Shown: one piece after another, positions 3,923 to 33,091 of the stretch
Position numbering within the stretch: the stretch's first letter is position 1
Layout: every line of letters starts with the position of its first letter
Assembly: GCA_965263035.1 (NCBI GenBank)
Contig: OZ253580.1
Location: 1,856,001-1,920,000, forward strand
Length of the DNA stretch: 64,000 bases
Direction: 5' to 3'
Source of the DNA: Acidobacteriota bacterium
Lineage (GTDB): Bacteria > Acidobacteriota > UBA6911 > RPQK01 > JAJDTT01
The notes under the pieces: generated by a model
What the model saw: the letters and a program-made list of their open reading frames with translations, nothing else
Database searches by the model: none
Told to the model about the DNA's origin: nothing
Program-made: the position numbers and the translations under genes

Positions 3923-4011
3923 GGCTTTTTCTCCTTACCGTTCCGGTTCAAAAACTCGGCGCCAGATCACCCGGCTGGTGCATGGCGGGACGTTCACCGT
4001 TGGCGGTCACA

Positions 4012-5478: not shown

Positions 5479-5610
5479 CTCGTCCTCCCGTACGTTCCTG
5501 TCTCGGATGCCGGCCCGAAGCATACGCCGTAGGTGGGAGCGAAGAAAGAGGAACGAGGAAAGAGAGACGAGGAGCCCGTGAGACCGCCGAGCGCCTCTTG
5601 CGGCGGGTTT

Positions 5611-6045
5611 CTAACCGCCCGGACCGTCCGCGCTGAAGTAGGCTTCCAGGGAATTCAGCTGATCCGCCAACTCCTCGATGTGATGCTGAAGCAGATTGCG
5701 AACCGACAACAGCCCGGTGACACGATTCTCCGAGTCCACCACCGGCAGGTGCCGGATGTGGCGGGAGACCATGAGCTCCAGGGCCTCTCCCGCTTCCGCC
5801 TCCTCCCCGATCGTCTGGACGGCCGTCGTCATAACCTCGCGAACGGTGGTGGCTTCAGAATCCAACCGGGGCACGACGACTCTCAGCATCACGTCCCGTT
5901 CGGAGAAGATTCCGACCAACTCATCCCCCTCCAGGACGACGGCGGCGCCGATTCTGGCGTTTCGCATGGACATGGCGGCCGAGAGCACCGTCGAGTCGAC
6001 TGCCACACTGGGAGGCGGAACTTGCGCCAATTTGATCACCTTCAT
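5611..6045 (-). CDS. CBS domain protein
   Basis: LVGIFSERD, VREVMT, IRHLPVVD, GLLSVRNL tandem CBS motifs. Confidence 0.9.
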   Translation of the reverse strand: MKVIKLAQVPPPSVAVDSTVLSAAMSMRNARIGAAVVLEGDELVGIFSERDVMLRVVVPRLDSEATTVREVMTTAVQTIGEEAEAGEALELMVSRHIRHLPVVDSENRVTGLLSVRNLLQHHIEELADQLNSLEAYFSADGPGG

Positions 6046-6162
6046 TCCAACACCTCTCCAATCCGCAATAATTCAAGGCAGGAATGGGCCGAGTATAACA
6101 CAGCGTCTGCCGGAAGAGCCCCGGAATCCACTGTCGAAGACAAGCCGGGAGAGGTCGGACGA

Positions 6163-6864
6163 TCACATGACGACCGGCCCGGAGACCTCTTCATCTTCTT
6201 CGATCTCCAGGACTTCGGCCGCCCGGATCCAGCGCTTGCGCCGCTGGAAATAGACGCCGGCCGCGATGACGCCCAGAATCAGTCCGATGGCGTGGGTCCG
6301 ATAGCTGACCTGAGGTTGAACGGCAGCAGGCAGGAGGAGGATCAGAGCCACACCCAGGCTTCGCATCACCCGTTTCTTCAGGGGGAGGCTCCGCTCCACC
6401 AGGATGTAGACGGTCAACCAGAATCCGGCCATCACGTGGGTCATGCCCGAAGCTCCCACCAGGTGAACCTCGGGGGAATAGGTCAGAAGGGAGAGGTAAT
6501 TGGTGACGCCGCTCAGAACGATGACGCCCAGGGGATAGACTCCGAAGCCGAAGTAACCGTAGAGGAGGTAGCCGAAGAAGATCACGAAGGGAAGATTGGA
6601 GCACAGATGCATCCAATTGGAATGGACGGCCAGAGCGGAGAATAGCCGCCAATATTCCTGCTGGTCCATGACCCTTGCCGGCACGGCCGCCAAGAGTCGA
6701 GAGAGCTCAGGAGAGTCCCTCCATACGAGGATGGAGACGAACAGGATGACCATCGCGCTGGTGGCCGCGACCAAGCCGCTGTTTTCCGCCGGCTTCCGCG
6801 AGAGGAGGGTCCGCTTGACCACGATCCGTGGCTGTGTCCAGTTGAATTCCGTTGACATGGGCAA
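6163..6864 (-). CDS. Rhomboid-family intramembrane serine protease
   Basis: YWRL, HxxxxHxxxN, GASG, HAIG; multiple TM helices. Confidence 0.9.
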   Translation of the reverse strand: MPMSTEFNWTQPRIVVKRTLLSRKPAENSGLVAATSAMVILFVSILVWRDSPELSRLLAAVPARVMDQQEYWRLFSALAVHSNWMHLCSNLPFVIFFGYLLYGYFGFGVYPLGVIVLSGVTNYLSLLTYSPEVHLVGASGMTHVMAGFWLTVYILVERSLPLKKRVMRSLGVALILLLPAAVQPQVSYRTHAIGLILGVIAAGVYFQRRKRWIRAAEVLEIEEDEEVSGPVVM

Positions 6865-7023
6865 TGTACCGGCGGTTTTCCATCATAGGAGCGGGGACCC
6901 TCGGGTTCAACGAGAGGGAGGCGTGGAATCCTCGGTTGGGCCCGTTCGGGTACGTTTCCGGGGTCTGTGCCGTGCTAACATCGACGCAGCCGGCTTGGTC
7001 TTTGCGTCCGTGAGACGTCACTC

Positions 7024-7434
7024 ATGAGTTGTTTGCGAAGTCCCGTCCCCTCCGACATCAAGGTGCTGAGAAAGCTCTGGCCGCGGCTGTCCGATGCGGC
7101 TCTGGAAGCGCAAATCCGTGGGCCCCGGCTCCGAATCATTGAAGCCGGAGGGAAGCCGGTGGGTTTTCTCAAGTTCCACGTGATCTGGGAATCGCTCCCC
7201 TTCATCGAGCTCATCGTGATCCTGGAATCGGAACGGGGTCTCGGCTACGGCACCCGGGCGGTGAGGGAGTGGGAGCGGCAGATGGCGGAACGCGGCTTCG
7301 ACCTGGTGGTCATGTCCACTCAGGCCTCCGCCACGGCCCAGCACTTCTGGCGCAAGCTCGGCTACCGGGATTGCGGCGCGCTCACGATACGGGACCAGCC
7401 CGCCGAGATCTTCATGCAGCGTCGCCTCTCGTAG
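7024..7434 (+). CDS. GNAT N-acetyltransferase
   Basis: RGLGYG acetyl-CoA motif, AQHFWRKLGY. Confidence 0.9.
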   Translation: MSCLRSPVPSDIKVLRKLWPRLSDAALEAQIRGPRLRIIEAGGKPVGFLKFHVIWESLPFIELIVILESERGLGYGTRAVREWERQMAERGFDLVVMSTQASATAQHFWRKLGYRDCGALTIRDQPAEIFMQRRLS

Positions 7435-7544
7435 GGACACCCCTTGTGTGCGGTCGCCCATCCTTCCGTCAGCCGTATTTCGAAGCCGGTCGAATGTCGT
7501 GGCGACTTTCGAGACGGACTGCTAAAGTCGGAAAACTCAAGCAC

Positions 7545-7618
7545 GCGCCCGTAGCTCAGATGGACAGAGCAACGGACTTCTAATCCGTGGGTCGGGGGTT
7601 CGAATCCCTCCGGGCGCG
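7545..7618 (+). tRNA. tRNA-Arg(TCT), CCA not encoded
   Basis: GCGCCCG...CGGGCGC acceptor stem, TAGCTCAG, anticodon arm ACGGA-CTTCTAA-TCCGT, GGTTCGAATCC. Confidence 0.97.
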
Positions 7619-8499
7619 CTACCGGTCTACGACGAGATTGCCCGTCTTTCAGGCGAGCGTCTGATCATGACCGATCCATTCGAACCAAAGGCGTGCTCCG
7701 AAATCGATGCGAAACCGGACTTGGTCGGCTGGCCGGTTCAAGCTCCCTCGGATCTCGGTCCGACCTCCGAGCGCGGCATTGCGCTACGAGAATTCCCGCC
7801 GAAGGCCACACATCGGCGCCAACGTATTCACGAGCGGTTCCGGACTTGGCCGTTTGAGCGCGACGCCGAGAACTCCTTCACCCGGGCAACCGCACGAATG
7901 GCTCGAACACTTTGACCCGGGGACGAGCAAATCCTCAACCGCGACGCCGTCGCGCCGCAGGACTTCGAGGTGGGAAGCGCCTCGCCGACGTTCCGATTGC
8001 CTCCGGACGCGACCGTTCGTTCTACGAACTTGGCCTGATGCAGTGTAAGAACGACATGGGCGAACTCGGCGCGTTCGTTCCGGACGCCACGACGACCGAC
8101 CATCAGGAGGCGGAGCGTCACCCGATCCGAATACACTTGCCTTGAATCTTCCTGGTACGTCATGAATTGGTTTCCGCGTTGGCTCGGTCAACGACGCGGC
8201 GTGGCTTTCGATGGCGTCGGCGTGTGACTGCTCGTACGCATTGGCGTGGAGGAGCGGTTGCAAAAAACGTGCCGGACGTACGTAACAGCAGTCAACGATC
8301 CGGCCACCTCCATCGTGCATTCGACCCAAGTTCAGAGCAAGGAGTTATTGGAGCAGTGCCAAGAGCGATTCGAACTTAAGCAGGGTGGCGGTACGTGTGG
8401 ACAGTCGCCATGGAACTGCGCCCGCATACCTCCACGTGACCATGCGCCAGCCCGCCAGACCTCGTGAAGAAACCAGCGCCAGATTCTTGAAGACTTGAT

Positions 8500-9864
8500 A
8501 CGCCGAAAAATATTCACGAGGTCAGGGATCCGATTCACGTGTTCGTCCGCTTGGACAGCGATGAGCGGAAGGTCCTGGATTCCCGACCGCTTCAAAGGCT
8601 GCGCCATATTCACCAATTGGCCATGAGCTACCTTGTGTATCCGGGAGCGACGCACAAGAGATTCGAACACTCCTTGGGGGTCATGGAACTCGCAGGCCGC
8701 GTTTTTGACGTAGTTACGAGGCCGGAGAATACGACGGATGAGATTCGAAATCTTCTGGAACCCATTTCCGTCCCCGACAAGCTTGCCTACTGGCGGCGGG
8801 TGTTGCGGATGGCCGCTCTCTGCCACGATGTCGGCCACCTCCCGTTCTCGCATTCGACTGAAAGACTGCTGCCGGATGGCTGGAATCACGAACACCTGAC
8901 AAGGGAATTCATCTCCAGCAAGGAAATGGAAAAGATATGGTGCTCCACGACTCCACCGCTCCGAACTGAGGATGTCGTCAAGCTGGCGGTGGGCCCGAAA
9001 AAAGTCGATGACCTGAACTTCAACGACTGGGAAACCATTCTCTCAGAAATCATCGTCGGGGATGCATTCGGCGTGGACCGTATGGACTACCTCCTGCGCG
9101 ATTCGCATCACGCAGGAGTCGCATACGGCAAGTTTGACCATTACCGGTTGATCGATACGCTTCGTATTCTTCCGAAACCACGGTCACAGGAGGAGGAGGG
9201 CTCTCAAGAGCCAGTGCTCGGCGTGGAGGAAGGCGGCATTCAATCGGCCGAAGCTCTCATGCTGGCGCGCTACTTCATGTTCTCCCAGGTTTATTTGCAT
9301 CCTGTCCGTCGAAGCTATGACATACATCTGGAGGACTTTCTGAAGGAACGGCTCCCTGGTGGCTTTTTCTCCACCGACCCGGAAGACCATTTGAAAATTA
9401 CGGACAACGAGATCACCGCCGAGTTACGGGAAGCCGCGGCAGCGAAAGATGCGCGTGGTCATTTGCATGCCCGCCGAATCGTGCGACGGGAGCACTTCAA
9501 GCAACTGTATGAGCGGAATCCTGACGACGTCCAGATCAACCCTGAATCTGGTGACGCAATTTTCGGGCCTTTGTGTGATGAGTTCGGCCAAGAATGCTTC
9601 CGACGGGATCGTTACTACCAGCAGGGCGGTGCACCAGATTTTCCGGTGCTTCTGCGGGACGGTCGTTTGGCGTCTTCTCTTTCCATCTCTGCCGTATTGA
9701 AGACTCTACCGATTCTGTCGGTCGATTTCATATTCGCAGATCGTTCCATCTTTTATGAAGCCGACACCTGGTTAAAAAACAATCGCCAACAGATTATTCG
9801 GCCCTTGGAAGAGGATAAGGAGGAGAGTAATGGACAGAATGGCGAAGGCCGCGTTGATCGCTGA
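8500..9864 (+). CDS. HD-domain dNTP triphosphohydrolase-like protein (SAMHD1/YdhJ/YwfO-like); start uncertain (ACG 8500 vs GTG 8539)
   Basis: HEVRDPIH, LQRLRHIHQL, GATHKRFEHSLG, LCHDVGHLPFSH, DRMDYLLRDS, MFSQVYLHP. Confidence 0.9.
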   Translation, partial: TPKNIHEVRDPIHVFVRLDSDERKVLDSRPLQRLRHIHQLAMSYLVYPGATHKRFEHSLGVMELAGRVFDVVTRPENTTDEIRNLLEPISVPDKLAYWRRVLRMAALCHDVGHLPFSHSTERLLPDGWNHEHLTREFISSKEMEKIWCSTTPPLRTEDVVKLAVGPKKVDDLNFNDWETILSEIIVGDAFGVDRMDYLLRDSHHAGVAYGKFDHYRLIDTLRILPKPRSQEEEGSQEPVLGVEEGGIQSAEALMLARYFMFSQVYLHPVRRSYDIHLEDFLKERLPGGFFSTDPEDHLKITDNEITAELREAAAAKDARGHLHARRIVRREHFKQLYERNPDDVQINPESGDAIFGPLCDEFGQECFRRDRYYQQGGAPDFPVLLRDGRLASSLSISAVLKTLPILSVDFIFADRSIFYEADTWLKNNRQQIIRPLEEDKEESNGQNGEGRVDR

Positions 9865-10372
9865 GTTGATTGAAAGATTGAGGCAAGAGGGAAGCTGGTG
9901 CGGAGAAACCCATGTGCAAAAGGCAGTCTATTTTCTGCAGAACCTCATGGACGTTCCTCTGCAATTCGATTTCATTCTGTACAAGCATGGTCCGTTTTCG
10001 TTCGATCTGAGAGACGAACTCACGGCCTTGCGCGCAGACGGCTTACTGAGACTGGAAACCCGGGGATTGTATGGTGCACGGATAGCCGCCACAGATCAGA
10101 GCATCTACATCCGGGAGTTCTACCCACGAACCTTGTCCAGACACAATAAGGTTATCGATTTCACATCTGGACAGATCGGGAAAAAAGGAGTTGTCGAACT
10201 GGAGCGACTGGCCACGGCCCTGTATGTGACCAGGCAATCCGGTCATCAGGCTTCGATTGATAACAGGGTGAAGACACTGGTCACCCTCAAACCCCACATA
10301 CCGGAAGAGGAGGCTCAGAAAGCCGTCTCGTTCGTGGACCACATGATCGAACTCGCGCACGACATGAGTTGA
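9830..10372 (+). CDS. YwgA/SocA(Panacea)-like winged-helix protein
   Basis: VQKAVYFLQ...FILYKHGPFSFDL...LERLATALY pattern; strong RBS aaggagg; overlaps HD gene by 35 bp. Confidence 0.65.
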   Translation: MDRMAKAALIAELIERLRQEGSWCGETHVQKAVYFLQNLMDVPLQFDFILYKHGPFSFDLRDELTALRADGLLRLETRGLYGARIAATDQSIYIREFYPRTLSRHNKVIDFTSGQIGKKGVVELERLATALYVTRQSGHQASIDNRVKTLVTLKPHIPEEEAQKAVSFVDHMIELAHDMS

Positions 10373-10443
10373 AGCCTGTACGGGCGATGTCGAGTCGCGA
10401 CGCGAAGCTCGGAAACCATCGGGAGGGACGCTACGCGGGACTT

Positions 10444-10531
10444 CGGAGGGGGAACTTCCAGTCCCCCTTGTGCCCCCCGGATCGGCGACTGGAAAGTCGC
10501 CGATCCGGGGGGCTGGAATGCCGCCGCTCCG
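10444..10531. repeat. REP-like units and 18-bp perfect hairpin between convergent genes (possible terminator)
   Basis: ccccccggatcggcgact-ggaa-agtcgccgatccgggggg 10473-10512; same GGCGAC-N6-GTCGCC/GCCGCTCC family as 747-2504. Confidence 0.7.
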
Positions 10532-10537
10532 CTCTCA

Positions 10538-11980
10538 TCAGAAGTTGTAGCCCATGGCGAGGTTGAACTGGTCGAGGCCGGTCTTGGCGCGGTTCCGGTT
10601 CCACTGATAGTCGGCTTTGACTACGATATTGGAAATCGGCTTGAGCTCCAGGCCCAAGGTGTGGAACGACCGGTCCCGTGCAGGATTACGAAGGTATCCG
10701 GCAGGCACCTGAGCCTGGGTGTCGAGAGTCTCGGCCCGATAGTAGGGCATCAGCCTCACGTCTTCCCGTACCCGGGAAAGCAGGTTGTAACCGAATTGAA
10801 GATAACCTCCCTGCTGAGTCTCACCCACCGAATCCATCCCGGTGTATCCGAGAGCCTGATTCAGTTCGGCCACGTCGTCCAGGGAGGCTCGGGCATAGAG
10901 ACCTCTCAGGTCGAAGCCCTCCATCCGGATCTGAGCGTGAAGCTCCCCGATCCTGGTCCCCAGGTCCAAATCTTGTCCGTCGAACGTCAGCCCCTGACCC
11001 GAGCCCCCGTTGTAGATGGACCCACCGAAGAAGACTCCCGGAGTCGGATTCAGATCGACCCGCGCCACTACGGCCATGTGGGAGGCCTTCGCCTTGTACC
11101 CCTTTTGCCGGCCGCCCCGCAGGCCATTGGAGCTGAACTTCGAACCCAGCAGACCATTCACCACGTAGACGCGGTAGTCGACCATCCCCGCGGACCCGAC
11201 GAAGCCGAACCCGTTCTCCCGCCAGGTGCTGGGCAGGATCCGGCGTTCGGTCTCCGGCCGATTGGCTCCCACGAAGACCGTGGGTTCATGAAGCTCGTTG
11301 ACCAGACCCATGGGCAGCAGGAGCAATCCTCCCCGGAGGGTCAGGTGATCGTTGACCAAGAAGTCCAGGTAGGCAAACTCGACCGACGTGGATCCTCCGA
11401 GGCTGGTGGATCCATGCTCGATCTCGATCTCCGAGTTGAAGACGAAGCGATCGTTGAACCGATAGCCGGCGTAGAGGATGGCCCGGAGAAAATCGAGTTC
11501 AGAGGTCTTGGAGACGGTGTCTCCAGACTCGTTATGAACACTGAAATTATTGTAGAGCATCTCACCGTAGCCGGCGATGGAGACACCCTGTTGCTTCCGA
11601 TAAATAGTGGCTGCCGCAGGACCGAGTCCTTTGCTGCGAGCCTGATCATCCGTGATCTCGATCTCCGGCTCGCCGCTGCGTAAACGTTCCACTTCGATGG
11701 CGAGAATGTCGACCTGACGCCGGACTTCCGCCAGTTCCTCGTCTGAAGATGCCTGTTTCTCAGATTTGGGGACCGCCTCCGGCTGTGGAGTCCTCTCCTT
11801 CTCGAGTTTCTCCAACCTCCGCTTCAACTCTTCGATCTGGGCCTTCAGATCTTGCTTGCCGGTGCCCATTACCGGCGGCAAGAGGGCGGCCAGCAACAGG
11901 CCAGCCACAAAATACTTCCACCATCGGTTACGCATTCTTGATCTTGTCTTCCCGTACATGCGAATCTCCCTGTGTTCCAT
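10538..11980 (-). CDS. Outer-membrane porin-like protein (OprO/OprP-like fold, probably metal-regulated)
   Basis: Signal peptide, coiled coil, GYGEMLYN, RAILYAGYRF, NSEIEIEH, HEPT, C-terminal GYNF. Confidence 0.7.
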   Translation of the reverse strand: MEHREIRMYGKTRSRMRNRWWKYFVAGLLLAALLPPVMGTGKQDLKAQIEELKRRLEKLEKERTPQPEAVPKSEKQASSDEELAEVRRQVDILAIEVERLRSGEPEIEITDDQARSKGLGPAAATIYRKQQGVSIAGYGEMLYNNFSVHNESGDTVSKTSELDFLRAILYAGYRFNDRFVFNSEIEIEHGSTSLGGSTSVEFAYLDFLVNDHLTLRGGLLLLPMGLVNELHEPTVFVGANRPETERRILPSTWRENGFGFVGSAGMVDYRVYVVNGLLGSKFSSNGLRGGRQKGYKAKASHMAVVARVDLNPTPGVFFGGSIYNGGSGQGLTFDGQDLDLGTRIGELHAQIRMEGFDLRGLYARASLDDVAELNQALGYTGMDSVGETQQGGYLQFGYNLLSRVREDVRLMPYYRAETLDTQAQVPAGYLRNPARDRSFHTLGLELKPISNIVVKADYQWNRNRAKTGLDQFNLAMGYNF

Positions 11981-12169
11981 AGGTGGAACTCAACCCCGTC
12001 CAGTTGTCACCGTTGATGGAGGAAAGCTATAGTGAGGATTGGTCTTTGCTCAAAGGCCGAAAAATCGAATCGGGGTGCGCCGATGCCACCGGTGTACCCC
12101 ACCCCCTCAATTCATTCCCCCGGATGCTTCAACATTCAACGCCTCATGCCCGCGTGCCGCGAGCATCTT

Positions 12170-12188
12170 ATTGAAATTGGATTTCAAC
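12170..12188. promoter_or_regulatory. AT-rich palindrome, candidate Fur-type operator
   Basis: TTGAAAT-tgg-ATTTCAA in the divergent intergenic region upstream of the porin. Confidence 0.5.
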
Positions 12189-12228
12189 TTCAACCCATGT
12201 CTCCATTTTTTCTTGGAAAGGTCGAACC

Positions 12229-13872
12229 ATGAACAAGCTGCTTGTGATCGCACTGCTGTTGAGCACCGCCGCGGAAGCCGAGGCCGGGGAGAAGGCCAAG
12301 ACCTCCCCCTTCACCGAACCCCAGAAACGGGCCAAGCGGATCCGCGCCAACAACGGGGCTTGGAATCCCATCGTCGACGTCACCGACGTATTTCCTGGAA
12401 ATCGGGCGTTGGATCGCCAGGGTGTCTTCAAGCTGTTCGACGCCGCCATCGGAGTCCAGCTTCGTGTCGAGCAGGCGGAGAGATCCGCACCCCTGCTGGA
12501 GGCGACGGCGGAGTGGGAGCAGGGGAAGTTCATCGGCCCCCTGTTCATCTGGAGAGCCGGCGGACTGCTCCACATGATCTACGAATGCTCAAGGGCGGAG
12601 GCCACGGCCTACGCCACCAGCACCGACGGTTACCATTGGACACGTCCGGAACTGGGCCAGGTCGAATTCGACGGGTCGTCGGCCAACAACCTCCTGCGAA
12701 ACGGCATCCGGGGTGCCACGGGTGTCTTCATCGACCCCCAGGCGCCGGCGGCGGAACGCTTCAAGGCCATGGGCGGCGACATGGCCTGGTACGACCCGGA
12801 GACCCTGCAGCCCCTTGACGGCGAGGAGGCCATGCGACGCTGGAACCGCCTAGTCTATGAGAAGGACACGTACAAGGGGCCTCGAGCGGAGATCTGGGGG
12901 CGCACCCTGGGCTGGATCTCGGCGGACGGCCGGGACTGGAAACCGCTGGAGAAGGCCCTGGGCAACCGTCCCGTCAACGGCGGCATCTCCGCCCACTACG
13001 ACGAGGCCAACGGCGAGTACATCGCCTACCAGCAGATCATGGGCAACACCGCCGAGCTGATTCCGGGGATCGGCACCGCCCGGATCGAGGAGGAGACGCA
13101 GCGCCGCACCATCGGGTTCTCGCGGACCAAGGACTTCCGGACCTGGCCGGCTCCCAAGCTGATCCTGGCTCCCGACGCCCAGGATGACCTGGACATCTCC
13201 TTTTATGGCGCCAACTACTTCCCCTATCCAGGGCGTACCGACCTTCACGTCATGGTCATCCCCGTCTACCACCAGCGGAACGACCACGTGGACACCCAGA
13301 TCGCCTTCAGCCGCGACGGCCTCTTCTGGACCCGGCCCGAGCGGCGGGCCATCCACCCTGTAGGCCCCCCCGGCAGCGGGGAAGATTGCCAGGTGCACAC
13401 TTGGCGCAACGGCATGCTGGAGCTTCCCGACGGCCACTGGGCGGTGCCCTACACGGGAATGTCCAGCCTCCACAACGTCTACGGGCAGGACCATCTCTTT
13501 CCCCAGGGACGGCCCATTCAGATCCGCTACGCGTTGTGGAAACCGAACCGCTTCTGCGGGATCGAGGCGGAGAGCGAAGGCCGGTTCACGATTCCCTCGA
13601 TCTACCGGCACGGGAACGAGCTGCGTCTGAACTACCGGTGCGCTCCGGGGGGCTGGATCAGCGTGGAGTTGCTGACCAAGAGCCCGTCCATGAATCAGGC
13701 CGATCTGCCGCCCATCGAGGGCTTCACCTTTGCCGACTGCGACCGCCTGACGGGCGACGAGTCCGATCGAGTCGTGACCTGGAAGGGTAAGCGCGATCTC
13801 TCCGGAATCGGAGAGACGGTGGCGATTCGCATCCGGATGTACCAGGCCAAGGTCTTCGCCTACAAGTTCTAA
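12229..13872 (+). CDS. Secreted beta-propeller glycoside-hydrolase-like protein
   Basis: Signal peptide; STDGYHWTRP, SRDGLFWTR repeats; C-terminal AKVFAYKF; paralog of 4012 and 28145 genes. Confidence 0.7.
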   Translation: MNKLLVIALLLSTAAEAEAGEKAKTSPFTEPQKRAKRIRANNGAWNPIVDVTDVFPGNRALDRQGVFKLFDAAIGVQLRVEQAERSAPLLEATAEWEQGKFIGPLFIWRAGGLLHMIYECSRAEATAYATSTDGYHWTRPELGQVEFDGSSANNLLRNGIRGATGVFIDPQAPAAERFKAMGGDMAWYDPETLQPLDGEEAMRRWNRLVYEKDTYKGPRAEIWGRTLGWISADGRDWKPLEKALGNRPVNGGISAHYDEANGEYIAYQQIMGNTAELIPGIGTARIEEETQRRTIGFSRTKDFRTWPAPKLILAPDAQDDLDISFYGANYFPYPGRTDLHVMVIPVYHQRNDHVDTQIAFSRDGLFWTRPERRAIHPVGPPGSGEDCQVHTWRNGMLELPDGHWAVPYTGMSSLHNVYGQDHLFPQGRPIQIRYALWKPNRFCGIEAESEGRFTIPSIYRHGNELRLNYRCAPGGWISVELLTKSPSMNQADLPPIEGFTFADCDRLTGDESDRVVTWKGKRDLSGIGETVAIRIRMYQAKVFAYKF

Positions 13873-13957
13873 TGCGATCCCGTTCGGCTGGACATGGGAA
13901 AAAAACAGCGTCTATGATGCATAGGTAGTCGTTCCAACTTTTGCGGAGTCAAAGATC

Positions 13958-15268
13958 ATGAAAACCCTGCTCTCCCTGGTCCTGCTCTTTTCGGCCGCGG
14001 CGCCCCTTCAAGCGGGCAATTGGCCCCAATTCCGGGGCCCCAGTTTCAACGGGTCGACCCCCGAAAAGGGTTTGCCGACCCAATGGTCGCCAACCGAGAA
14101 CATCGCGTGGAGCGCGACCTTGCCCGGACCCAGTGCGGCTACGCCCGCCGTCTGGAAGGATCACGTCTTCGTTTCCAGCACGGACACGAAGTCCAATACG
14201 CTGAAGGCCCTCTGCTTTGACCGGGCCAGCGGCAAGCTGCTCTGGCAAAGGGACTTCGCCACCGGGATCAACAGGGACAGCCGGAGCGACTTCGCCTCGC
14301 CCTCTCCCGCCACCGACGGCAAGCTGGTCGTCTTCTTCTATGGCAATGGGGAGATGGCGGCGTTCGACTTTTCGGGGCATCAGCTCTGGCGGCGCCAGAT
14401 CGAGAAAGACTACGGCGAATTCGCCTTCTTCTGGACCTTCTCGTCCAGTCCGCTCCTCTTCGACGGCAAGCTCTACCTCCAGGTGCTGCAGCGGGACGTC
14501 CCCATCGAGGGACGCGGTTTGAAGGACCGCAAGAACCGGTCGTACATCCTGGCCATGAAACCCGAAACCGGCGAGACCCTGTGGCGCAGCTTCCGCCCCA
14601 GCCAGGCGGTGGCCGAGTCTCGCGAGGCCTTCACCTCCCCCGTCCCCTTTGTCCACAACGGGCGCCGCGAATTGTTGGTGGTTGGCGGCGACGACCTGAG
14701 CGGCCACGACCTGGAGACCGGCAAGGAACTTTGGCGGTGGGGGACCTGGAATCCCACGCGCATCCGGCACTGGCGCCTGGTCCCCTCCCCCGTGGCCAAC
14801 CAGGACGTGATCCTGGCCTGCGCCCCCAAGCGGGATCCCATCTACGCCATCAAGACGGGCGGAGTCGGAACGCTGGACGACAGCTCCATCGCCTGGGTCA
14901 GCAAGGACGTCCGGCCGGTGACCTCCGACGTACCCACACCCGCGTACTACGACGGAGACTTCTTCGTCCTGAGCGACGTGCGGAAGTCCCTCTCTCGAGT
15001 CGAGCCCAAGACGGGCAAGGTGAAATGGACGATTCCGACGCCGGGCCGCAGCAAATACGAGGCCTCGCCCCTGGCCGGTGACGGCAAGATCTACCTGATC
15101 AATTTCGACGGAGACGTGGTGATTGTGGACGCGGCAGGAGGAGAGGTCCTCAACCAGATCGCCATGGGCGACGCCGAGGACGCCCCGGTCCGCTCGACCG
15201 TGGTGGCAGCCCAGGGTCACCTATTCGTCCGGACCAACCGGACCCTGTTCTGCGTCGGCCAGAACTGA
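13958..15268 (+). CDS. PQQ-binding-like beta-propeller protein (BamB-like)
   Basis: NWPQFRGP N-terminus, repeated GKLLW/ASP motifs. Confidence 0.85.
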   Translation: MKTLLSLVLLFSAAAPLQAGNWPQFRGPSFNGSTPEKGLPTQWSPTENIAWSATLPGPSAATPAVWKDHVFVSSTDTKSNTLKALCFDRASGKLLWQRDFATGINRDSRSDFASPSPATDGKLVVFFYGNGEMAAFDFSGHQLWRRQIEKDYGEFAFFWTFSSSPLLFDGKLYLQVLQRDVPIEGRGLKDRKNRSYILAMKPETGETLWRSFRPSQAVAESREAFTSPVPFVHNGRRELLVVGGDDLSGHDLETGKELWRWGTWNPTRIRHWRLVPSPVANQDVILACAPKRDPIYAIKTGGVGTLDDSSIAWVSKDVRPVTSDVPTPAYYDGDFFVLSDVRKSLSRVEPKTGKVKWTIPTPGRSKYEASPLAGDGKIYLINFDGDVVIVDAAGGEVLNQIAMGDAEDAPVRSTVVAAQGHLFVRTNRTLFCVGQN

Positions 15269-15280
15269 CCCGGCAGCGCG

Positions 15281-16378
15281 CTACGCGAGTTTGCCCCGGC
15301 CAACCAGCGGCCAGACCGTCTCCACGCGGCCGTCCCGGATCCCGTACAGGACGTCGTGCAGAAAGACCGTCGAGTCCGAGTATCCGGGAATGATCTCGAT
15401 CTTGTCCCCCACCCGGGGCGATTCGCTGGGCTCGGCCAACCGGATGATTCCGTGCTCGGCCGACATCACGAACTCCCGGGCCGCGATCCCTCCCAGGACT
15501 TTGGGGGCGGAGGAGGCTCGGCTCATGGTCTTGAATCCGGCGTCGCAGATGATGCGGGTGGGATGGGGGCGGCTGGTCACGGTGGACAGGATGGTCAGTG
15601 CGAACTCGTGCTCCACGCCGTAGTCGTGACGGTATGTGATGTCGCAGTAGACGCCGCCTCCCGCCTCGATCTCCGTGATTCCGGGAACGAAAGCGCTGAT
15701 CCAGTAGGTCCCGGTGCCGCCGCAACTGACGATTTCAACCGGAATCCCCGCGTTCCGGATGGCTTGGGCGGTGTCCGTCAGCTTCCCCAGGGCCTCCTCG
15801 ACCAGGAGCTTCCTCTTTCCCAGGTCCGACTCGCCCAGCACCTGGGCCTCCCAGGTCTGCAATCCGGCGAAGCGCACGTGCCGCAGTTGGGCGATCCGGC
15901 GGGCCAGGTCCACGGTGGGTTCTCCCGGCAAGACTCCGGCGCGCTGCATTCCCACGTCCACCTCGATCAGGATCCGGGGACGGACGCCCTTCACACCCGC
16001 GGCGCGGTCGATGGCCTGGGCGTTCTCGAATTGGTCCACACAGACCATCACGTCGGCCCGGCGGCAGACGTTGACCAGACGGTCGATCTTCGCCGGACCC
16101 ACGATCTGGTTGGCCACGAGGATGTCGTGGATGCCGGCGGCGGCCATGACCTCCGCCTCCCCCAGCTTGGCGCAGGTGATTCCGTGGGCTCCCGCTTCCA
16201 GGCACAGATTCGCCAGGGCCGGCGTCTTCATCGCCTTGGTGTGGGGGCGCCATCCCACCTTGGCGTCGCGAACGATAGTGGCCGCCATGCGGTCGATGTT
16301 GCGCTGAAGGATATCCAGATCCACCATCAGTGCCGGCGTATCCAGCGCCTCCCTGGGTTGTCCCACCAAACTGTTCAC
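15281..16378 (-). CDS. DSD1-family PLP enzyme (D-threonine aldolase/D-serine dehydratase-like)
   Basis: LDTPAL, RPHTK, CAKLGEAE, GGTGT, DAGFK, SAEHG. Confidence 0.9.
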   Translation of the reverse strand: MNSLVGQPREALDTPALMVDLDILQRNIDRMAATIVRDAKVGWRPHTKAMKTPALANLCLEAGAHGITCAKLGEAEVMAAAGIHDILVANQIVGPAKIDRLVNVCRRADVMVCVDQFENAQAIDRAAGVKGVRPRILIEVDVGMQRAGVLPGEPTVDLARRIAQLRHVRFAGLQTWEAQVLGESDLGKRKLLVEEALGKLTDTAQAIRNAGIPVEIVSCGGTGTYWISAFVPGITEIEAGGGVYCDITYRHDYGVEHEFALTILSTVTSRPHPTRIICDAGFKTMSRASSAPKVLGGIAAREFVMSAEHGIIRLAEPSESPRVGDKIEIIPGYSDSTVFLHDVLYGIRDGRVETVWPLVGRGKLA

Positions 16379-29653: not shown

Positions 29654-29713
29654 CCAGGCGGAAAACGGAATCGAGATCACTCAGGTTGCCAACACCAGGA
29701 AATGGATCTGCCC

Positions 29714-29876
29714 AGGAGCCTGCGCCGCAGAAATTGATCTACTGCGAAAGTGGTAGAATCGGTCCATATTTCCCCGATTTCTCGGCGAATAGCACAACTA
29801 TGCACCTCAAAATCGAGAAAATCTGGCCTCGATTCCCCACTTTCTCGCTACGATCATTTCTACCGCGCAGACTCCT
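29714..29876 (+). mobile_element. 163-bp MITE, copy 1
   Basis: AGGAGCCTGCGC...GCGCAGACTCCT imperfect ~25-bp TIRs; near-identical to four other copies. Confidence 0.9.
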
Positions 29877-30861
29877 AGCCCATTGAATTTCGACCTCCAG
29901 ACACTCCGAGGGGATCTCTCCGGCGGTATCACCTCCGCGGTGGTGACGCTGCCGGTCGCATTGGCCTTCGGCGTGGCGTCGGGCCTGGGGGCGGCCGCGG
30001 GCTTGTACGGCGCTATTGCCGCCGGCTTTTTCGCGGCTCTGTTCGGCGGAACGCGGGCACGATTCACGCGTTGCCCGGGGTGGTGGCCAACATCAATGGC
30101 AGCGCCTTTGCCATCGCCTCCCTGACGCTGGTTGTCGTATCGATCTGGCCCCGGCGCCTGGCGAGACTGCTGCCCGCTCCCCTGCTGGCCCTGGTTGGCG
30201 GGACACTGGTGGGCCTGTTGTGGCTCAGTGACGCCCCCGTCATCGGACCCGTGCCTGGAGGCCTGCCGGAACCGCAGTTGATCTTCCCCTCCGCCGGCTT
30301 CATGGCGGGTGCCCTCCAACCCGCGCTCATTCTTGCCCTGCTCGCCTCCGCGAACAGCCTTCTCACGTCCCTGGTCGCCGATTTCCCTAACTGGCGGACA
30401 CCACAATCCCAACCGGGAACTGGTGGGTCAGGGGATCGGCAACATGGTCGCGGGACTCATCGGAGGCGTGCCCGGAGCCGGGGCCACCATGGGAACCGCC
30501 ATCAACATACGGGCCGGCGCCCTGACCCGGGCATCGGGGGCCTTTTCCGCGGTGGTCCTGCTGGTGTTTCTATTGGGTCTTGGCCATTACGTGGAGCCGA
30601 TTCCCCGGGCCGTTCTCGCGGGCCTCCTGATCAAGGTCGGCTGGGACATCGTCGACTGGAATCTTCTCACCCGGCTTCACCGCATCCGGCGCGAACACGC
30701 GGCAGTCATGCTGATCACGCTGGGCCTGACGGTGTTCGTCGACCTGGTGACCGGCATCGCCATCGGGCTGATCGCCGCGGGAATGACTCACGCACGGCAG
30801 TTGGAACGCCTGGAGATGGACAGCGTCGTCTCGGTTCCGCTGCTGGACCAGACCTTCTTTT

Positions 30862-30990
30862 GGGGCCTATATATCTGACTTGACGTCAGCACACAGTTCC
30901 GGCGCCACGCTCGGCCCACTGGCCCACGTTTCGGCACCCAGGGCAAGAACCCCCGCCCTGAGAATGTTCAGGGCTGCATTATGGTCCCTG
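30862..30990 (-). ncRNA. Putative TnpB omega-RNA overlapping the tnpB 3' end (boundaries uncertain)
   Basis: Minus-strand stems cagggc/gccctg, ggtgcc/ggcgcc with inner ggcc/ggcc, ctgac-gtcaa-gtcag; position typical of TnpB omega-RNAs. Confidence 0.55.
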
Positions 30991-32033
30991 TCCATTCTGA
31001 GATCACAGGCTGAGCAGCGATACGTCTCGCTCCTTCCCGGTCGATTCCGGGCACCACAACGGTGACAGTCCTGCGACGTGTATTGTGGGTTGACTTCCAC
31101 GAACTCCCGACCGGCCCACTCTGCCTTGTACTGGAGTTGATTCCGCAGCAGCCCCCATTGCTGTGAGAGCATCTCCCGATTCAAGCCCTTCGTCGTCATC
31201 CCCTTGATGTCCAACTTCTCCACCGCAATCAGTCCGTTCTTGCGGATGATCTCAGTGGTCTGCCGGTGACAGGAATTCCGGTTGCGTACACCCTCCCGGA
31301 AACGCATTCCCGCCAACCGGCGGACTCTCTTCTTCCTCCGGTTCGACCCCCGCCGGCACCGAGCAATCTTTCTCTGTTGCCGCCTGATCTCCGCCCAGTC
31401 CCGGGTGTTGCGTTCGATTCGTTCACCGGTGGACATAACCGCCCGCTTGCGGACACCCAGGTCGATTCCGACCGCCGATGCACACTTCGGCAGCGGCTGC
31501 TTCTCGACTTCATAGGTCAGATCCACGTACACCCGATTCGGCTTGCGGACGATCCGCAACGCCTTCAGTTCACCATCGGGCAAGGGCCGGGCCGGGAACA
31601 ACCGAATCGTCGGAAAGCCCTGGGGACGGATGGCGTATCCCCGGGCCCGCTTTTTCACCATCGTCGTCCTGGGATCGACGATATCAATGGTCTCCATCCT
31701 GGAGATCGGTCGGAACCGGGGATACCCAGGATCCTCTCCCGCCTTGGAGCGCCGGAAGAAGGCCTGGAAGGCTGGCTCCAAGCGAAACAACATCCCCCTC
31801 TCGGCCTTGACGGCAATGGCCCCGAGCCCGTCCGGATCGTTTCTCCGCTGCTGCGTCAAACCCCGCAACTGGTCATACAGAGTCACGGATTTCTCATCCT
31901 TCTCCCAGGTGTCCTTACGCTCCTCCAGGGCGGAGTTGTAGAGGCGGTTCAAAACTGATCTGATCCAATCCAGACGCCGAAGCCCTCCCTTGGACATCTT
32001 GGCTCGGCACTGAAATGTTGTGTGAACCTTCAC
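30867..32033 (-). CDS. tnpB: RNA-guided endonuclease TnpB
   Basis: LYNSALEER, GYPRFR, VGIDLG (RuvC-I D), IAVEKL (RuvC-II E), TSQDCHRCG..CSAC zinc finger, DRDHNAALNI (RuvC-III D). Confidence 0.95.
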   Translation of the reverse strand: MKVHTTFQCRAKMSKGGLRRLDWIRSVLNRLYNSALEERKDTWEKDEKSVTLYDQLRGLTQQRRNDPDGLGAIAVKAERGMLFRLEPAFQAFFRRSKAGEDPGYPRFRPISRMETIDIVDPRTTMVKKRARGYAIRPQGFPTIRLFPARPLPDGELKALRIVRKPNRVYVDLTYEVEKQPLPKCASAVGIDLGVRKRAVMSTGERIERNTRDWAEIRRQQRKIARCRRGSNRRKKRVRRLAGMRFREGVRNRNSCHRQTTEIIRKNGLIAVEKLDIKGMTTKGLNREMLSQQWGLLRNQLQYKAEWAGREFVEVNPQYTSQDCHRCGARNRPGRSETYRCSACDLRMDRDHNAALNILRAGVLALGAETWASGPSVAPELCADVKSDI

Positions 32034-32504
32034 AGTATATATGTTAATACATCTGCATGACGATCCATCAAGTTAGATATATAAGCCCCCTTCTTTTCCC
32101 TTCCTAAGGGACCGTCCGGATCGGACCCCTATTTGGCTCGAGTCGGTCTGTTGGCGCTCAAGGGCAGCTTTACTGTCGCCTCCTCCAACCGATTGGCCCG
32201 CGCGATCAGCGCCGACATCAAGGATCACGATGTCGTCATTTTCGACTTCTCTCAGGCCACGTACTTCGACGACAGCGCGGCCATGGTGATCAAGAAGCTG
32301 ATGGACATCGCTCGGGAAGAACAGACTGGGCTAATCGTGATGGGCCTCTCCGGCTCGGTTGCGAAAACCCTTCAGGCCCTCGCCGTCTTACGGGAGGTGC
32401 CGGAGAGTCGAGTCGTTTCGACGCTGGACGAGGCGCGGCAGGCGGCAAAAGATCTCCTCGGCGGTTGACGCCAGCGAGTTCGTCTTGGACAGCCGGCGCG
32501 TGCT

Positions 32505-32667
32505 AGGAGCCTGCGCCGCAGAAATTGATCTACTGCGAAAGCGGTAGAATCGATCCATATTTCCTCGATTTCTCGGCGAATAGAACAACTATGCACCTCA
32601 AAATCGAGAAAATCCGGCCTCGATTCCCCACTTTCTCGCTACGATCATTTCTACCGCGCAGACTCCT
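32505..32667 (+). mobile_element. 163-bp MITE, copy 2
   Basis: Same sequence; flanks CT|...|AG; end overlaps the ferritin stop codon. Confidence 0.9.
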
Positions 32668-33091
32668 AGAGGGGCCAATCCCGGAGCAGCCGCTCGGTTT
32701 CTTCCGAGTGCGTCGTTTCGTCGCGCACGATGTCTTCGAGCTGGACCACCAATCCCTTGTCACCCAACTCTTCCGCCTGTCGGGCCCGCTCCGTATAGTC
32801 CCGCGTCGCCTTCTGTTCGGCAACCAGGACCTGTTCGACCATCTCCTTGTTCGTGGCAGCCGCCGGAACCGGCCGGGGCACCGTGGCCGGCTCGCCGCCC
32901 AGGGCCACGATCTTGTTCGCCAGGTACTGCGCATGCAGCTGCTCGTCGGCCACTTCACCGAGAAAGAACTGAGACAACTGCGGCCTGTAGGGACCCGTCG
33001 TCTTGGCGGCGTAGGTCAGATATTGGATGATCGCACCCAGTTCTCCGGCCAAGTCTTCATTCAGATTCTCGATCATCTCCTGCTTGGTCAT
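32666..33091 (-). CDS. Ferritin-like (bacterioferritin/Dps-like) protein
   Basis: LNEDLAGELGAIIQY, DEQLHA, LGGEP, EQKA..Y, DETTH diiron motifs. Confidence 0.88.
   Translation of the reverse strand: MTKQEMIENLNEDLAGELGAIIQYLTYAAKTTGPYRPQLSQFFLGEVADEQLHAQYLANKIVALGGEPATVPRPVPAAATNKEMVEQVLVAEQKATRDYTERARQAEELGDKGLVVQLEDIVRDETTHSEETERLLRDWPL

What the first reader, a model, noticed from the sequence alone, without database searches (positions are those of the whole stretch)
30854..32097. Intact TnpB nuclease inside a TIR/8-bp-TSD cassette (DDE/IS1595-like ends) instead of IS200/IS605 ends
Seen: tnpB is the only gene in a 1228-bp unit bounded by 22-bp inverted repeats (ggggcctatatatctgacttga / tcaagttagatatataagcccc, 20/22). 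The unit is flanked by an exact CTTCTTTT duplication, and removing it restores the sulP reading frame (..QTFFSLPKG..). All three RuvC acidic residues and the zinc finger are intact, and the stop codon lies inside the TIR. Established: IS200/IS605 and IS607 elements, the usual TnpB hosts, have no TIRs and make no TSD. 8-bp AT-rich TSDs with GGnnnnTAT-type ends are typical of IS1595-family DDE elements, which also form passenger-carrying non-autonomous derivatives. Inference: a TnpB captured by, and mobilised in trans by, a DDE transposase, a bacterial parallel to Fanzor capture by TIR transposons. I cannot check whether this has already been described.
Basis: partly seen in the sequence, partly recalled or inferred. 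Interest (0 to 1): 0.92.

Follow-up and report, generated by a model that had tools for sequence, protein, structure and literature searches.

The report
TnpB nuclease inside IS1595-type transposon
A small mobile element carrying only an RNA-guided nuclease gene (tnpB) has jumped into a sulfate-transporter gene using the inverted ends and 8-bp target duplication of an unrelated cut-and-paste transposon family, and its guide RNA and insertion sites suggest that the nuclease still works for the element.

Summary
Window 30862-32089 is a 1228-bp element with 22-nt inverted ends (20/22), an intact tnpB as its only gene and an exact CTTCTTTT duplication. Three sister species have the uninterrupted sulP site with one copy of the 8-mer.

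The element is non-autonomous. Related tnpB-only units with GGG(G/A)NTTATATA-type ends and different 8-bp duplications occur in this genome, in 5 of 8 other species of the genus, and in Chloroflexota and Proteobacteria. Transposase-bearing IS1595-family elements in the same genomes have the same kind of ends (up to 24/26) and 8-bp duplications. No Y1 TnpA is nearby.

Two further results:
- A covarying RNA structure overlaps the tnpB 3' end, and a loop pairs with the last 5 nt of the inverted repeat. RNA-library contigs pile up there.
- The base 5' of the duplication on the tnpB-start side is G in 49 of 52 insertions, against 5 of 17 for transposase-bearing elements. I read this as a candidate TAM imprint.

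TnpBs in DDE transposons with inverted ends were published in 2023. IS1595 is not named in what I could read. I rate this a new variant of a known kind.

Caveats: the window's own subfamily has no identified cognate transposase, and one genome with many copies lacks an intact IS1595 transposase.

The parts
30854..30861 (+). Left copy of the 8-bp target-site duplication (CTTCTTTT). On the tnpB strand it is the first 8 nt after the element end.
   Evidence: The empty sites in G002, G003 and G007 have one copy.
30842..30861 (-). Predicted guide segment of the omega RNA. It is the flank read out of the tnpB-3' end, made of the duplication plus the next 12 nt of sulP. This is an inference; the length is not measured.
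   Evidence: The RNA scaffold ends at the last base of the element. The rule that the guide is the adjoining flank comes from canonical TnpB as described in PMC13565253 and PMC10711439 (passages).
30862..30883 (.). Inverted repeat at the tnpB-3' end (RE). It holds the stop codon and the last six codons of tnpB. Its last 5 nt pair with a loop of the RNA scaffold.
   Evidence: I1.
30862..30985 (-). Omega-RNA-like scaffold overlapping the 3' end of tnpB. It has two covarying stems, a terminal hairpin that uses the inner part of the repeat, and a pseudoknot to the repeat tip. The 5' end is not determined.
   Evidence: On 24 sequences, 91% of cells are paired against 40-50% when the partners are slid, and 13 of 24 pairs change on both sides. 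Fold energy is -59.9 kcal/mol, z = -3.58. RNA-library contig depth peaks here.
30867..32033 (-). tnpB, 388 aa, intact RuvC D191/E272/D350 and CxxC..CxxC zinc finger.
   Evidence: The closest named natural solved structure is ISDra2 TnpB (8exa/8h1j, E about 1e-27). dN/dS is 0.12-0.23 against other subfamilies of the genus.
32034..32063 (-). Promoter-like site just upstream of the tnpB start, inside the element. This is a consensus match only.
   Evidence: 1 site found, against 0.5 expected in shuffles.
32068..32089 (.). Inverted repeat at the tnpB-5' end (LE).
   Evidence: I1.
32090..32097 (+). Right copy of the 8-bp target-site duplication.
32098..32098 (-). The base just outside the duplication on the tnpB-5' side. 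It is G on the tnpB strand and is the candidate last base of a TAM.
   Evidence: G at this position in 49 of 52 independent insertions, and never C. Controls are and statistics.
29883..30861 (+). 5' part of the interrupted sulP gene. It is itself damaged: about 255 bp present in sister species are missing, and the frame switches.
32090..32468 (+). 3' part of sulP (STAS domain region).

Best explanation
The unit is a non-autonomous transposon of the IS1595 type whose only gene is an active-looking tnpB.

Shown:
- It inserted into sulP by a mechanism that duplicates 8 bp.
- It belongs to a family of tnpB-only units, 1.2-1.45 kb long, with ends beginning GGG(G/A)NTTATATA.
- Transposase-bearing IS1595-family elements in the same genomes have the same kind of ends and the same duplication length.

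Inferred:
- An IS1595-family DDE transposase made elsewhere in the cell binds the two inverted ends and moves the unit by cut-and-paste.

Shown by covariation:
- The 3' end of tnpB together with the adjoining inverted repeat encodes a structured RNA that ends exactly at the element boundary.
- A loop of that RNA pairs with the last 5 nt of the repeat, so the repeat tip serves both the transposase and the RNA.

Inferred:
- Transcription runs on into the flank, so the guide is the 8-bp duplication plus the next bases.
- When the element is excised and the site is resealed, or when an empty copy of the site is present, TnpB cuts that site. Repair from a copy that still holds the element then restores it, as proposed for IS200/IS605.
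- The G just 5' of the duplication on the tnpB-start side would be the last base of the motif (TAM) that TnpB needs. Copies at sites without it would not persist.
For: **True insertion.** Empty sites with one 8-mer exist in G002, G003 and G007.

**Family of elements**
- This genome holds 14 DNA matches in at least 3 subfamilies, with 5 different exact duplications.
- The family is present in 6 of 9 genomes of the genus and in none of the 32 other relatives at E<=1e-20.
- Inverted ends of this type occur in 26 of 45 loci from Acidobacteriota, Chloroflexota, Alpha- and Gammaproteobacteria. Sixteen of these have an exact 8-bp duplication.

**Link to IS1595**
- This genome has 17 PF12762 matches. 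PF12762 is found in 8 of 9 genomes of the genus, including all 6 that carry the tnpB family.
- The transposases match DDE_Tnp_IS1595 at E 5e-38 and 1.3e-39. Zn_ribbon_IS1595 scores 25.2 and 20.7 bits against a cut-off of 25.4.
- Their elements have GGGGATTATATAC.. ends and exact 8-bp duplications.
- The subfamily-2 tnpB ends match them at 24 of 26 positions.
- The ends of the Caldilineaceae tnpB elements match an IS1595 element of a Bryobacterales genome at 22 of 26 positions.

**No IS605 machinery.** There are only 3 weak Y1_Tnp matches in 6.2 Mb, none near a copy.

**TnpB is maintained**
- The catalytic and zinc residues are invariant.
- dN/dS is 0.12-0.23.
- G007 has many intact 397-aa frames.

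**RNA**
- Structure counts support the fold.
- The loop/tip pairs change together: GGGGU with GCCCC, GGGAA with TTCCC, GGGAU with ATCCC.
- The tnpB stop lies 5-59 nt from the end in 19 of 19 elements.
- In two metatranscriptome runs, contig depth over 30826-30967 is 3,353-15,361. It is 27-185 over the rest of tnpB (31181-32103). Two runs of unrecorded kind are far flatter, within about 5-fold.

**TAM-like imprint**
- G at -1 in 36 of 39 sites, plus 13 new sites in G041 that are all G.
- The mirror position is C in only 13 of 39.
- Transposase-bearing IS1595 elements have G at -1 in 5 of 17.
- Fisher p = 7e-8 and 4e-6.
Against: - No transposase-bearing element in this genome shares the inner half of the window's subfamily-1 ends (14 of 22 identical). 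Five PF12762 matches gave no recognisable ends.
- G041 (Caldilineaceae) has 70 ends of this type and many near-identical copies, but no PF12762 match. It has only a 62-residue relic of such a transposase. G045 has none either.
- tnpB and an IS1595 transposase were never found inside one pair of ends. Among about 100 tnpB loci, only L148 had a transposase match, about 1.6 kb away. No capture intermediate is seen.
- Copy B of this genome and the G006 copy have ends but no duplication.
- The RNA evidence comes from assembled contigs. These cannot show strand, ends or true level, and DNA can be present in RNA libraries.
- I derived the RNA structure by eye from these same sequences, which favours it in the slid control.
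- A one-base TAM is unusually short. The imprint could have another cause.
- Rfam has no match in the region.
- No experiment was done.
Confidence: 0.78

Rival explanations
1. The ends and the 8-bp duplication come from a transposase that is not of the IS1595 family, or from the element's own product. The likeness to IS1595 ends would then be shared ancestry or convergence in the outer 12 nt.
For: - G041 holds 70 ends and about 29 paired units, yet no intact IS1595 transposase.
- The window's subfamily shares only 14 of 22 positions with the known IS1595 ends.
- tnpB is never seen beside the transposase in one unit.
Against: - Two independent end matches extend over the whole repeat: 24 of 26 in the same genome and 22 of 26 across phyla.
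- The duplication length is the same.
- All 6 genomes of the genus that have the tnpB family also have PF12762.
- G041 keeps a relic of such a transposase.
- Orphaned non-autonomous elements are common (established knowledge of MITEs).
- No TnpB-family protein is known to make staggered 8-bp joins.
Confidence: 0.1
2. The G just outside the duplication reflects where and in which orientation the transposase inserts these particular elements, because their two ends differ. It would not reflect a TnpB motif.
For: - The bias is nearly absolute, even among near-identical and so presumably recent copies: 17 of 17 in G041 and 8 of 8 with a duplication in G007. That fits a rule applied at insertion.
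- In several subfamilies the LE and RE differ at position 5 and in subterminal sequence.
Against: - Transposase-bearing elements of the same kind show no such base in either orientation: G at -1 in 5 of 17, C at +8 in 6 of 17.
- In G041 the two ends are identical over 23-26 nt, yet the bias holds.
- The position is exactly where a TAM would lie if the guide starts at the element boundary.
Confidence: 0.3
3. The window's copy is an immobile relic. Its subfamily has lost its partner, and tnpB is kept for another use or is not yet decayed.
For: - No cognate transposase was found for subfamily 1.
- The copies of subfamily 1 differ by 2-8%.
- One copy is internally deleted and one lacks a duplication.
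Against: - The site is empty in three sister species, so the insertion is younger than those splits.
- The ORF is intact with all catalytic residues.
- RNA-library contigs cover the RNA region at very high depth.
Confidence: 0.15
4. The inverted repeat and the duplication arose by chance around an ordinary IS200/IS605-type tnpB.
For: None beyond the general fact that short repeats occur by chance.
Against: - Empty sites exist.
- Dozens of copies carry different exact 8-bp duplications.
- The pattern control in G041 gave 70 matches against 0 for the reversed pattern.
Confidence: 0.01

Closest known systems
DDE-transposase-associated TnpB branches DDE-1 to DDE-6 (Altae-Tran et al. 2023, PMC10691335; section 9 read in full, other passages by search)
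   Same: - Prokaryotic TnpB sits inside inverted terminal repeats.
- The tnpB 3' end lies close to one end of the element.
- Solo tnpB units have ends like those of transposase-bearing units, and movement in trans is proposed.
   Different: - The main text names only IS630. A 2026 review (PMC13565253, passages) lists ISL2, IS630 and IS1031. 'IS1595' occurs 0 times in the main text.
- Those branches were defined by a DDE gene next to tnpB. Here tnpB was never inside one unit with the transposase.
Fanzor genes in eukaryotic TIR transposons (Bao and Jurka 2013, PMC3627910, listing and abstract only; Yoon et al. 2023, PMC10711439, passages)
   Same: - A TnpB-family nuclease is cargo of cut-and-paste elements with TIRs and TSDs.
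- There are non-autonomous copies that encode only the nuclease.
- The TIR forms part of the guide-RNA scaffold.
   Different: - This case is bacterial.
- The duplication is 8 bp of variable sequence, so it cannot be a fixed part of the scaffold or of the TAM.
- Here the scaffold appears to end at the element boundary.
IS200/IS605 family, tnpB-only (IS1341-type) elements
   Same: - tnpB is the only gene.
- An omega RNA overlaps the 3' end of the gene and ends at the element's right end.
- The protein is a typical ISDra2-like TnpB.
   Different: The family has no TIRs, makes no TSD and moves by a Y1 TnpA through hairpin ends (PMC13565253, passage). This element has 22-nt TIRs and an 8-bp TSD.
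IS1595 family insertion sequences and their passenger-carrying or shortened derivatives (group names such as ISNwi1 are recalled and come from no call)
   Same: - The ends begin GGG(G/A)NTTATATA.
- The duplications are 8 bp and AT-rich.
- DDE_Tnp_IS1595 transposases are co-resident.
   Different: - The element encodes no transposase, and its cargo is an RNA-guided nuclease.
- One end has been reshaped to serve as the 3' end of a structured RNA.

Membership tests
TnpB (OrfB_IS605 / Cas12f1-like TNB) RNA-guided nucleases | Match to the family profiles above the curated cut-offs | tested here: met
   PF01385 scores 53 bits (cut-off 30.5) and PF07282 scores 88.9 bits (cut-off 26.3). ISDra2 TnpB structures match at E about 1e-27.
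TnpB (OrfB_IS605 / Cas12f1-like TNB) RNA-guided nucleases | RuvC D-E-D triad and C4 zinc finger | tested here: met
   D191, E272, D350 and C323, C326, C340, C343 are invariant in 19 sequences.
TnpB (OrfB_IS605 / Cas12f1-like TNB) RNA-guided nucleases | Structured guide RNA overlapping the gene's 3' end and ending at the element boundary | tested here: met
   Covariation counts, fold z = -3.58 and an RNA-library depth peak. Strand and ends of the RNA are not shown.
TnpB (OrfB_IS605 / Cas12f1-like TNB) RNA-guided nucleases | RNA-guided, TAM-dependent DNA cleavage | not testable with these tools
   The only support is the indirect G imprint at 49 of 52 sites.
IS200/IS605 family | No terminal inverted repeats and no target-site duplication | tested here: not met
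   The element has a 22-nt TIR and an exact 8-bp TSD with empty sites in relatives.
IS200/IS605 family | Y1 (HUH) TnpA in the element or in the genome with matching ends | tested here: not met
   Three weak PF01797 matches in the genome, none at a copy of the element.
IS1595 family (as a non-autonomous derivative) | Ends like those of elements that encode a DDE_Tnp_IS1595 transposase | tested here: met
   - The outer 12 nt are shared by all subfamilies.
- Subfamily 2 matches at 24 of 26 positions.
- The window's subfamily matches at only 14 of 22.
IS1595 family (as a non-autonomous derivative) | 8-bp target-site duplication | tested here: met
   for tnpB units. for transposase-bearing units.
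IS1595 family (as a non-autonomous derivative) | Encodes a DDE_Tnp_IS1595 transposase | tested here: not met
   The unit holds only tnpB. Among about 100 tnpB loci, only L148 has a match to the transposase, and it lies about 1.6 kb away.
IS1595 family (as a non-autonomous derivative) | Mobilised by an IS1595 transposase | not testable with these tools
   This needs a transposition assay.
DDE-associated TnpB branches of Altae-Tran et al. 2023 | tnpB adjacent to a DDE transposase gene in members of the branch | tested here: not met
   Whether this clade is one of their branches cannot be told without their supplements.
DDE-associated TnpB branches of Altae-Tran et al. 2023 | Inverted terminal repeats, with the tnpB 3' end within 250 bp of an end | tested here: met
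   The stop lies 5-59 nt from the end in 19 of 19 elements.

The most novel reading that the evidence does not exclude
A whole clade of bacterial TnpBs, spread over at least three phyla, lives only as cargo of non-autonomous IS1595-type cut-and-paste elements and has adapted to them. The tip of the transposase's inverted repeat has become the pseudoknot partner at the 3' end of the guide RNA. The guide starts with the 8-bp target duplication. TnpB-dependent restoration or homing decides which insertions survive, which leaves a one-base TAM imprint (G, never C) beside the duplication in 49 of 52 insertions. If so, RNA-guided donor-site restoration would not be confined to scarless IS200/IS605 and IS607 transposition. 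It would also work for a DDE transposon in bacteria.
Probability: 0.45. Interest if true: 0.8.

Novelty: new variant of a known kind. Interest (0 to 1): 0.62.

Why it matters
TnpB is thought to help IS200/IS605 and IS607 elements persist by cutting the resealed donor site. A 2026 review argues that this gives little benefit to DDE cut-and-paste elements, and that this explains why the pairing is rare in prokaryotes (PMC13565253, passage).

The family described here is abundant and spans several phyla. It pairs an intact TnpB and its RNA with DDE-type ends, and an orientation-specific base at the insertion sites is what a TAM requirement would leave. This makes the question directly testable in bacteria. 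It offers a natural parallel to Fanzor in eukaryotic TIR transposons. It also gives compact TnpB/RNA pairs with a possibly very short TAM.

It also shows that searches relying on a transposase gene next to tnpB will miss such associations.

Tried and rejected
- **Rfam.** A scan of 30500-32500 at E<=1 gave no match, so no curated RNA family covers the region.
- **RNAalifold.** On 18 sequences that included distant ones, it gave only a weak consensus of -6.76 kcal/mol. I then wrote the structure by eye from the alignment and tested it with counts.
- **Terminal hairpin.** It could not be tested on one alignment, because its position shifts between subfamilies.
- **Cognate transposase for subfamily 1.**
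  - Generic inverted-repeat scans around five PF12762 matches found nothing above 11-13 nt.
  - Three solo ends of the ACTTGA type (genome 1498497, 2001940, 4593290) have no partner end.
- **Empty or excised sulP allele in public runs.** The joints seen skip 1411, 1450 and 1759 bases on short sides. None is at the exact boundaries, so they say nothing.
- **Tree.** The careful tree did not finish in 300 s, so I used the quick tree. Its deep forks are open, and it cannot show a single origin of the TIR association. Several rows labelled 'noTIR' inside TIR clades are probably misses of my pattern; L111 is one example.
- **sulP integrity.** Comparing with the G007 ORF gave a confusing result, because the longest ORF there runs out of frame. 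I report only the gap of about 255 bp seen.
- **Automatic stem finder.** It mis-parsed L125, L099 and L101. I do not count them for the pseudoknot.
- **Literature searches that found nothing on this pairing.** I searched TnpB+IS1595 (9 papers, none on it), ISNwi1 (2 unrelated papers), TnpB+ISXO2 (0 papers), and three broader searches.
Full report
**1. The observation**

- An inverted repeat of 22 nt, 20 of 22 complementary, lies at 30862-30883 and 32068-32089. It is the longest in the region.
- CTTCTTTT lies directly outside both arms.
- The only long ORF between the arms runs from 32033 to 30867 on the minus strand, 388 aa. It matches OrfB_IS605 and the Cas12f1-like TNB domain above Pfam's cut-offs.
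- Its stop codon lies in the repeat.
- In an alignment with 18 homologues, D191, E272, D350 and four cysteines are invariant.
- The nearest named natural protein with a solved structure is ISDra2 TnpB.

**2. The insertion is real**

I searched the eight other species of the genus held by the tool with 29900-32500.
- G002, G003 and G007 have the two sulP flanks abutting, and the two pieces overlap by 8-9 bases.
- Read out, G002 and G003 have a single CTTCTTTT and G007 has CTTCTTTG, in an open frame ..LLDQTFFALPKGPSGSDPYLARVGLLALKG...

The 8-bp duplication was therefore made by the insertion. The sulP of this genome also lacks about 255 bp that the three relatives have, so the gene is further decayed.

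**3. A family of tnpB-only elements**

- *This genome.* The 6.2-Mb genome has 14 DNA matches to the unit.
  - Full or nearly full copies carry other exact 8-bp duplications: ATTCGTTT, TATTTTAT and ATGAATAT.
  - A 649-bp internally deleted copy has TTGGGTTT.
  - One copy has ends but no duplication.
  - There are at least three subfamilies, 73-98% identical.
- *The genus.* The protein family is found in 6 of 9 genomes of the genus and in none of 32 further relatives at E<=1e-20. Of 20 loci, 14 gave a pair of ends and 10 an exact 8-bp duplication.
- *Beyond the genus.*
  - Record titles of close relatives name Acidobacteriota.
  - Homologues 37-56% identical in Bryobacterales, Terriglobia, Caldilineaceae, Dehalococcoidia, a Paracoccaceae genome and a gammaproteobacterial genome have ends of the same type. 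This holds in 26 of 45 loci, 16 with an exact 8-bp duplication.
  - Homologues at or below 39% identity from Deinococcus, Bacillota and Ktedonobacteria have none.
- *Tree.* In a quick tree, those form a clade of 19 rows that all lack such ends. The rows with ends are clustered (12 label changes against 21 in shuffles), but the deep forks are unresolved.

**4. The link to IS1595**

- *Transposases.*
  - The genome has 17 matches to DDE_Tnp_IS1595 and only 3 weak matches to the Y1 transposase of IS200/IS605.
  - Two of the transposases checked match DDE_Tnp_IS1595 at E 5e-38 and 1.3e-39. Their match to the family's zinc ribbon is near the cut-off.
- *Their elements.* Eight matches are copies of a 1762/1763-bp element with perfect 26-nt ends and exact 8-bp duplications. 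Three other element types of 1512-1627 bp have related ends.
- *Shared ends.*
  - All begin GGGGATTATAT, as the tnpB units begin GGGG(A/C)(T/C)TATAT.
  - Subfamily 2 of the tnpB units shares 24 of 26 positions with the 1762-bp element in G007, which also holds that element. It shares 20-22 of 26 in this genome.
- *Co-occurrence in the genus.* PF12762 is present in 8 of 9 genomes, including all 6 that have the tnpB family. These genomes are kin, so this is weak support.
- *A cross-phylum match.* The ends of the Caldilineaceae tnpB units match those of an IS1595 element in a Bryobacterales genome at 22 of 26 positions.

Evidence against the link:
- The window's own subfamily shares only 14 of 22 positions with the known ends, and I found no partner for it.
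- The Caldilineaceae genome has 70 ends but only a 62-residue relic of such a transposase. A Dehalococcoidia genome has none.
- tnpB and the transposase never share one unit.

**5. The RNA**

The tnpB stop lies 5-59 nt from the element end in 19 of 19 elements. In an alignment of the last 175 nt of 24 elements, I saw stems whose two sides change together and wrote them as one structure:
- a 6-bp stem;
- a second stem of 6+3+4 pairs;
- five pairs between the loop of the first stem and the last five bases of the element.

Counts support it.
- 91% of cells pair, against 40-50% when the partners are slid by 1-3 columns.
- 13 of 24 pairs change on both sides.
- The covariation score is 0.349, against 0.139 in shuffles (0 of 500 reach it).
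- Because I derived the structure from these sequences, the slid control is biased in its favour. The double changes do not carry that bias.

Other points:
- The loop and the tip change together: GGGGU with GCCCC, GGGAA with TTCCC, GGGAU with ATCCC. In rows ending TCCCC the fifth pair fails.
- The window's 124-nt segment folds at -59.9 kcal/mol, z = -3.58.
- Synonymous differences are mostly lower in the last 50 codons than in the rest of the gene.
- In contigs of two metatranscriptome runs, depth over 30826-30967 is 3,353-15,361. It is 27-185 over the rest of tnpB (31181-32103) and 0-43 in the sulP flanks. Two runs of unrecorded kind are far flatter. Contigs cannot give strand, ends or true level, so this is only a hint.

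**6. The insertion sites**

I oriented every insertion by tnpB.
- The base just outside the duplication on the tnpB-start side is G in 36 of 39 sites and A in 3.
- All 17 usable sites of the Caldilineaceae genome have G; 13 of them are new. In total G occurs at 49 of 52 sites, and C never.
- The first base of the duplication is A in 27 of 35.
- The mirror position would be C if the preference were symmetric. It is C in 13 of 39.
- In 17 insertions of transposase-bearing IS1595 elements, oriented by the transposase gene, G occurs at -1 in 5 and C at +8 in 6 (counted from its rows).
- Fisher tests give 7e-8 and 4e-6.

Since the RNA ends at the boundary, the guide would start with the duplication. 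In an empty site, this G would be the base next to the target, which is where a TAM lies. At the occupied 3' junction that base is the C of the repeat tip, which would protect the element from its own RNA. This reading is an inference. A rule of the transposase for these particular ends is the main rival.

**7. What is known**

- IS200/IS605 and IS607 have neither TIRs nor TSDs (PMC13565253, passage).
- Altae-Tran et al. 2023 describe six TnpB branches associated with DDE transposases, all with inverted terminal repeats. They also describe solo TnpBs with near-identical ends, and conclude that some TnpBs move in trans (PMC10691335; section 9 read in full).
- Their main text names IS630. The 2026 review adds ISL2 and IS1031. 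'IS1595' is absent from the main text.
- The review argues that TnpB should help DDE elements little.
- Yoon et al. 2023 report that in Fanzor elements the TIR and TSD form part of the guide-RNA scaffold (PMC10711439, passages).
- My searches found no paper on TnpB with IS1595 or ISXO2. I could not see supplements or ISfinder.

**8. Verdict**

The category is already in print, so the element is a new variant of a known kind.

New in this case, as far as I could check:
- the IS1595 family as carrier;
- the strictly non-autonomous state of a clade that spans several phyla;
- the pairing of the RNA with the repeat tip;
- the G beside the duplication.

Confidence is 0.78 that this is a trans-mobilised IS1595-type element with a working TnpB/RNA module. 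It is about 0.45 that the G is a TAM imprint of TnpB-dependent persistence.

Noticed in passing
window 29712-29878 and 32503-32670 (approximate): An interspersed repeat of about 165 bp flanks sulP on both sides. The genome search listed 40 scored matches at 95-100% identity, out of 207 first-look candidates. One copy also abuts a truncated tnpB copy (genome 571355).
   Followed up: partly
window about 30045-30060: sulP of this genome lacks about 255 bp that the orthologues of G002, G003 and G007 have, and its frame switches twice. The gene is decayed beyond the insertion, or the assembly has indels.
   Followed up: partly
genome G000:C1:1410204-1410852: A 649-bp internally deleted derivative keeps both ends, 275 nt of the RNA side and its own 8-bp duplication (TTGGGTTT). 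It has G at -1. It is a tnpB-less miniature element that still carries the RNA region.
   Followed up: partly
genome G000:C1:1740263-1742024 and 783316-784827: The IS1595 elements carry 500-700 bp beyond the transposase gene. The ORF fragments there read like the N-terminus of a DNA methyltransferase (..DLIYLDPPFNS..) and may be a remnant of a passenger gene.
   Followed up: no
genome G000:C1:2907203-2913185: A pair of IS1595-type ends lies 5983 bp apart around one transposase match, without a matching duplication. It may be a passenger-carrying or composite unit.
   Followed up: no
G041 (Caldilineaceae), e.g. L193, L196, L200, L211: This genome has 70 ends of the tnpB-element type, including miniature units of 222, 372, 706 and 776 bp. 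It has no intact IS1595 transposase, only a 62-residue relic at 2013182-2013370.
   Followed up: partly
genome G000:C1:2600571-2601949: This copy of the window's subfamily is 1379 bp rather than 1228 bp, and its tnpB match starts at residue 39, with a separate match to residues 2-48. There is an internal insertion or duplication near the 5' end.
   Followed up: no
window 31175-31184: Contigs of three public runs carry a 15-base insertion here relative to the window (two variants). This is a length polymorphism between copies or strains inside tnpB.
   Followed up: no
transposase-bearing IS1595 insertions, loci L015-L071: Oriented by the transposase gene, the base before the duplication is C in 9 of 17 and the base after it is G in 8 of 17. 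This may be a symmetric C..G preference, the opposite of the G seen beside tnpB units.
   Followed up: no
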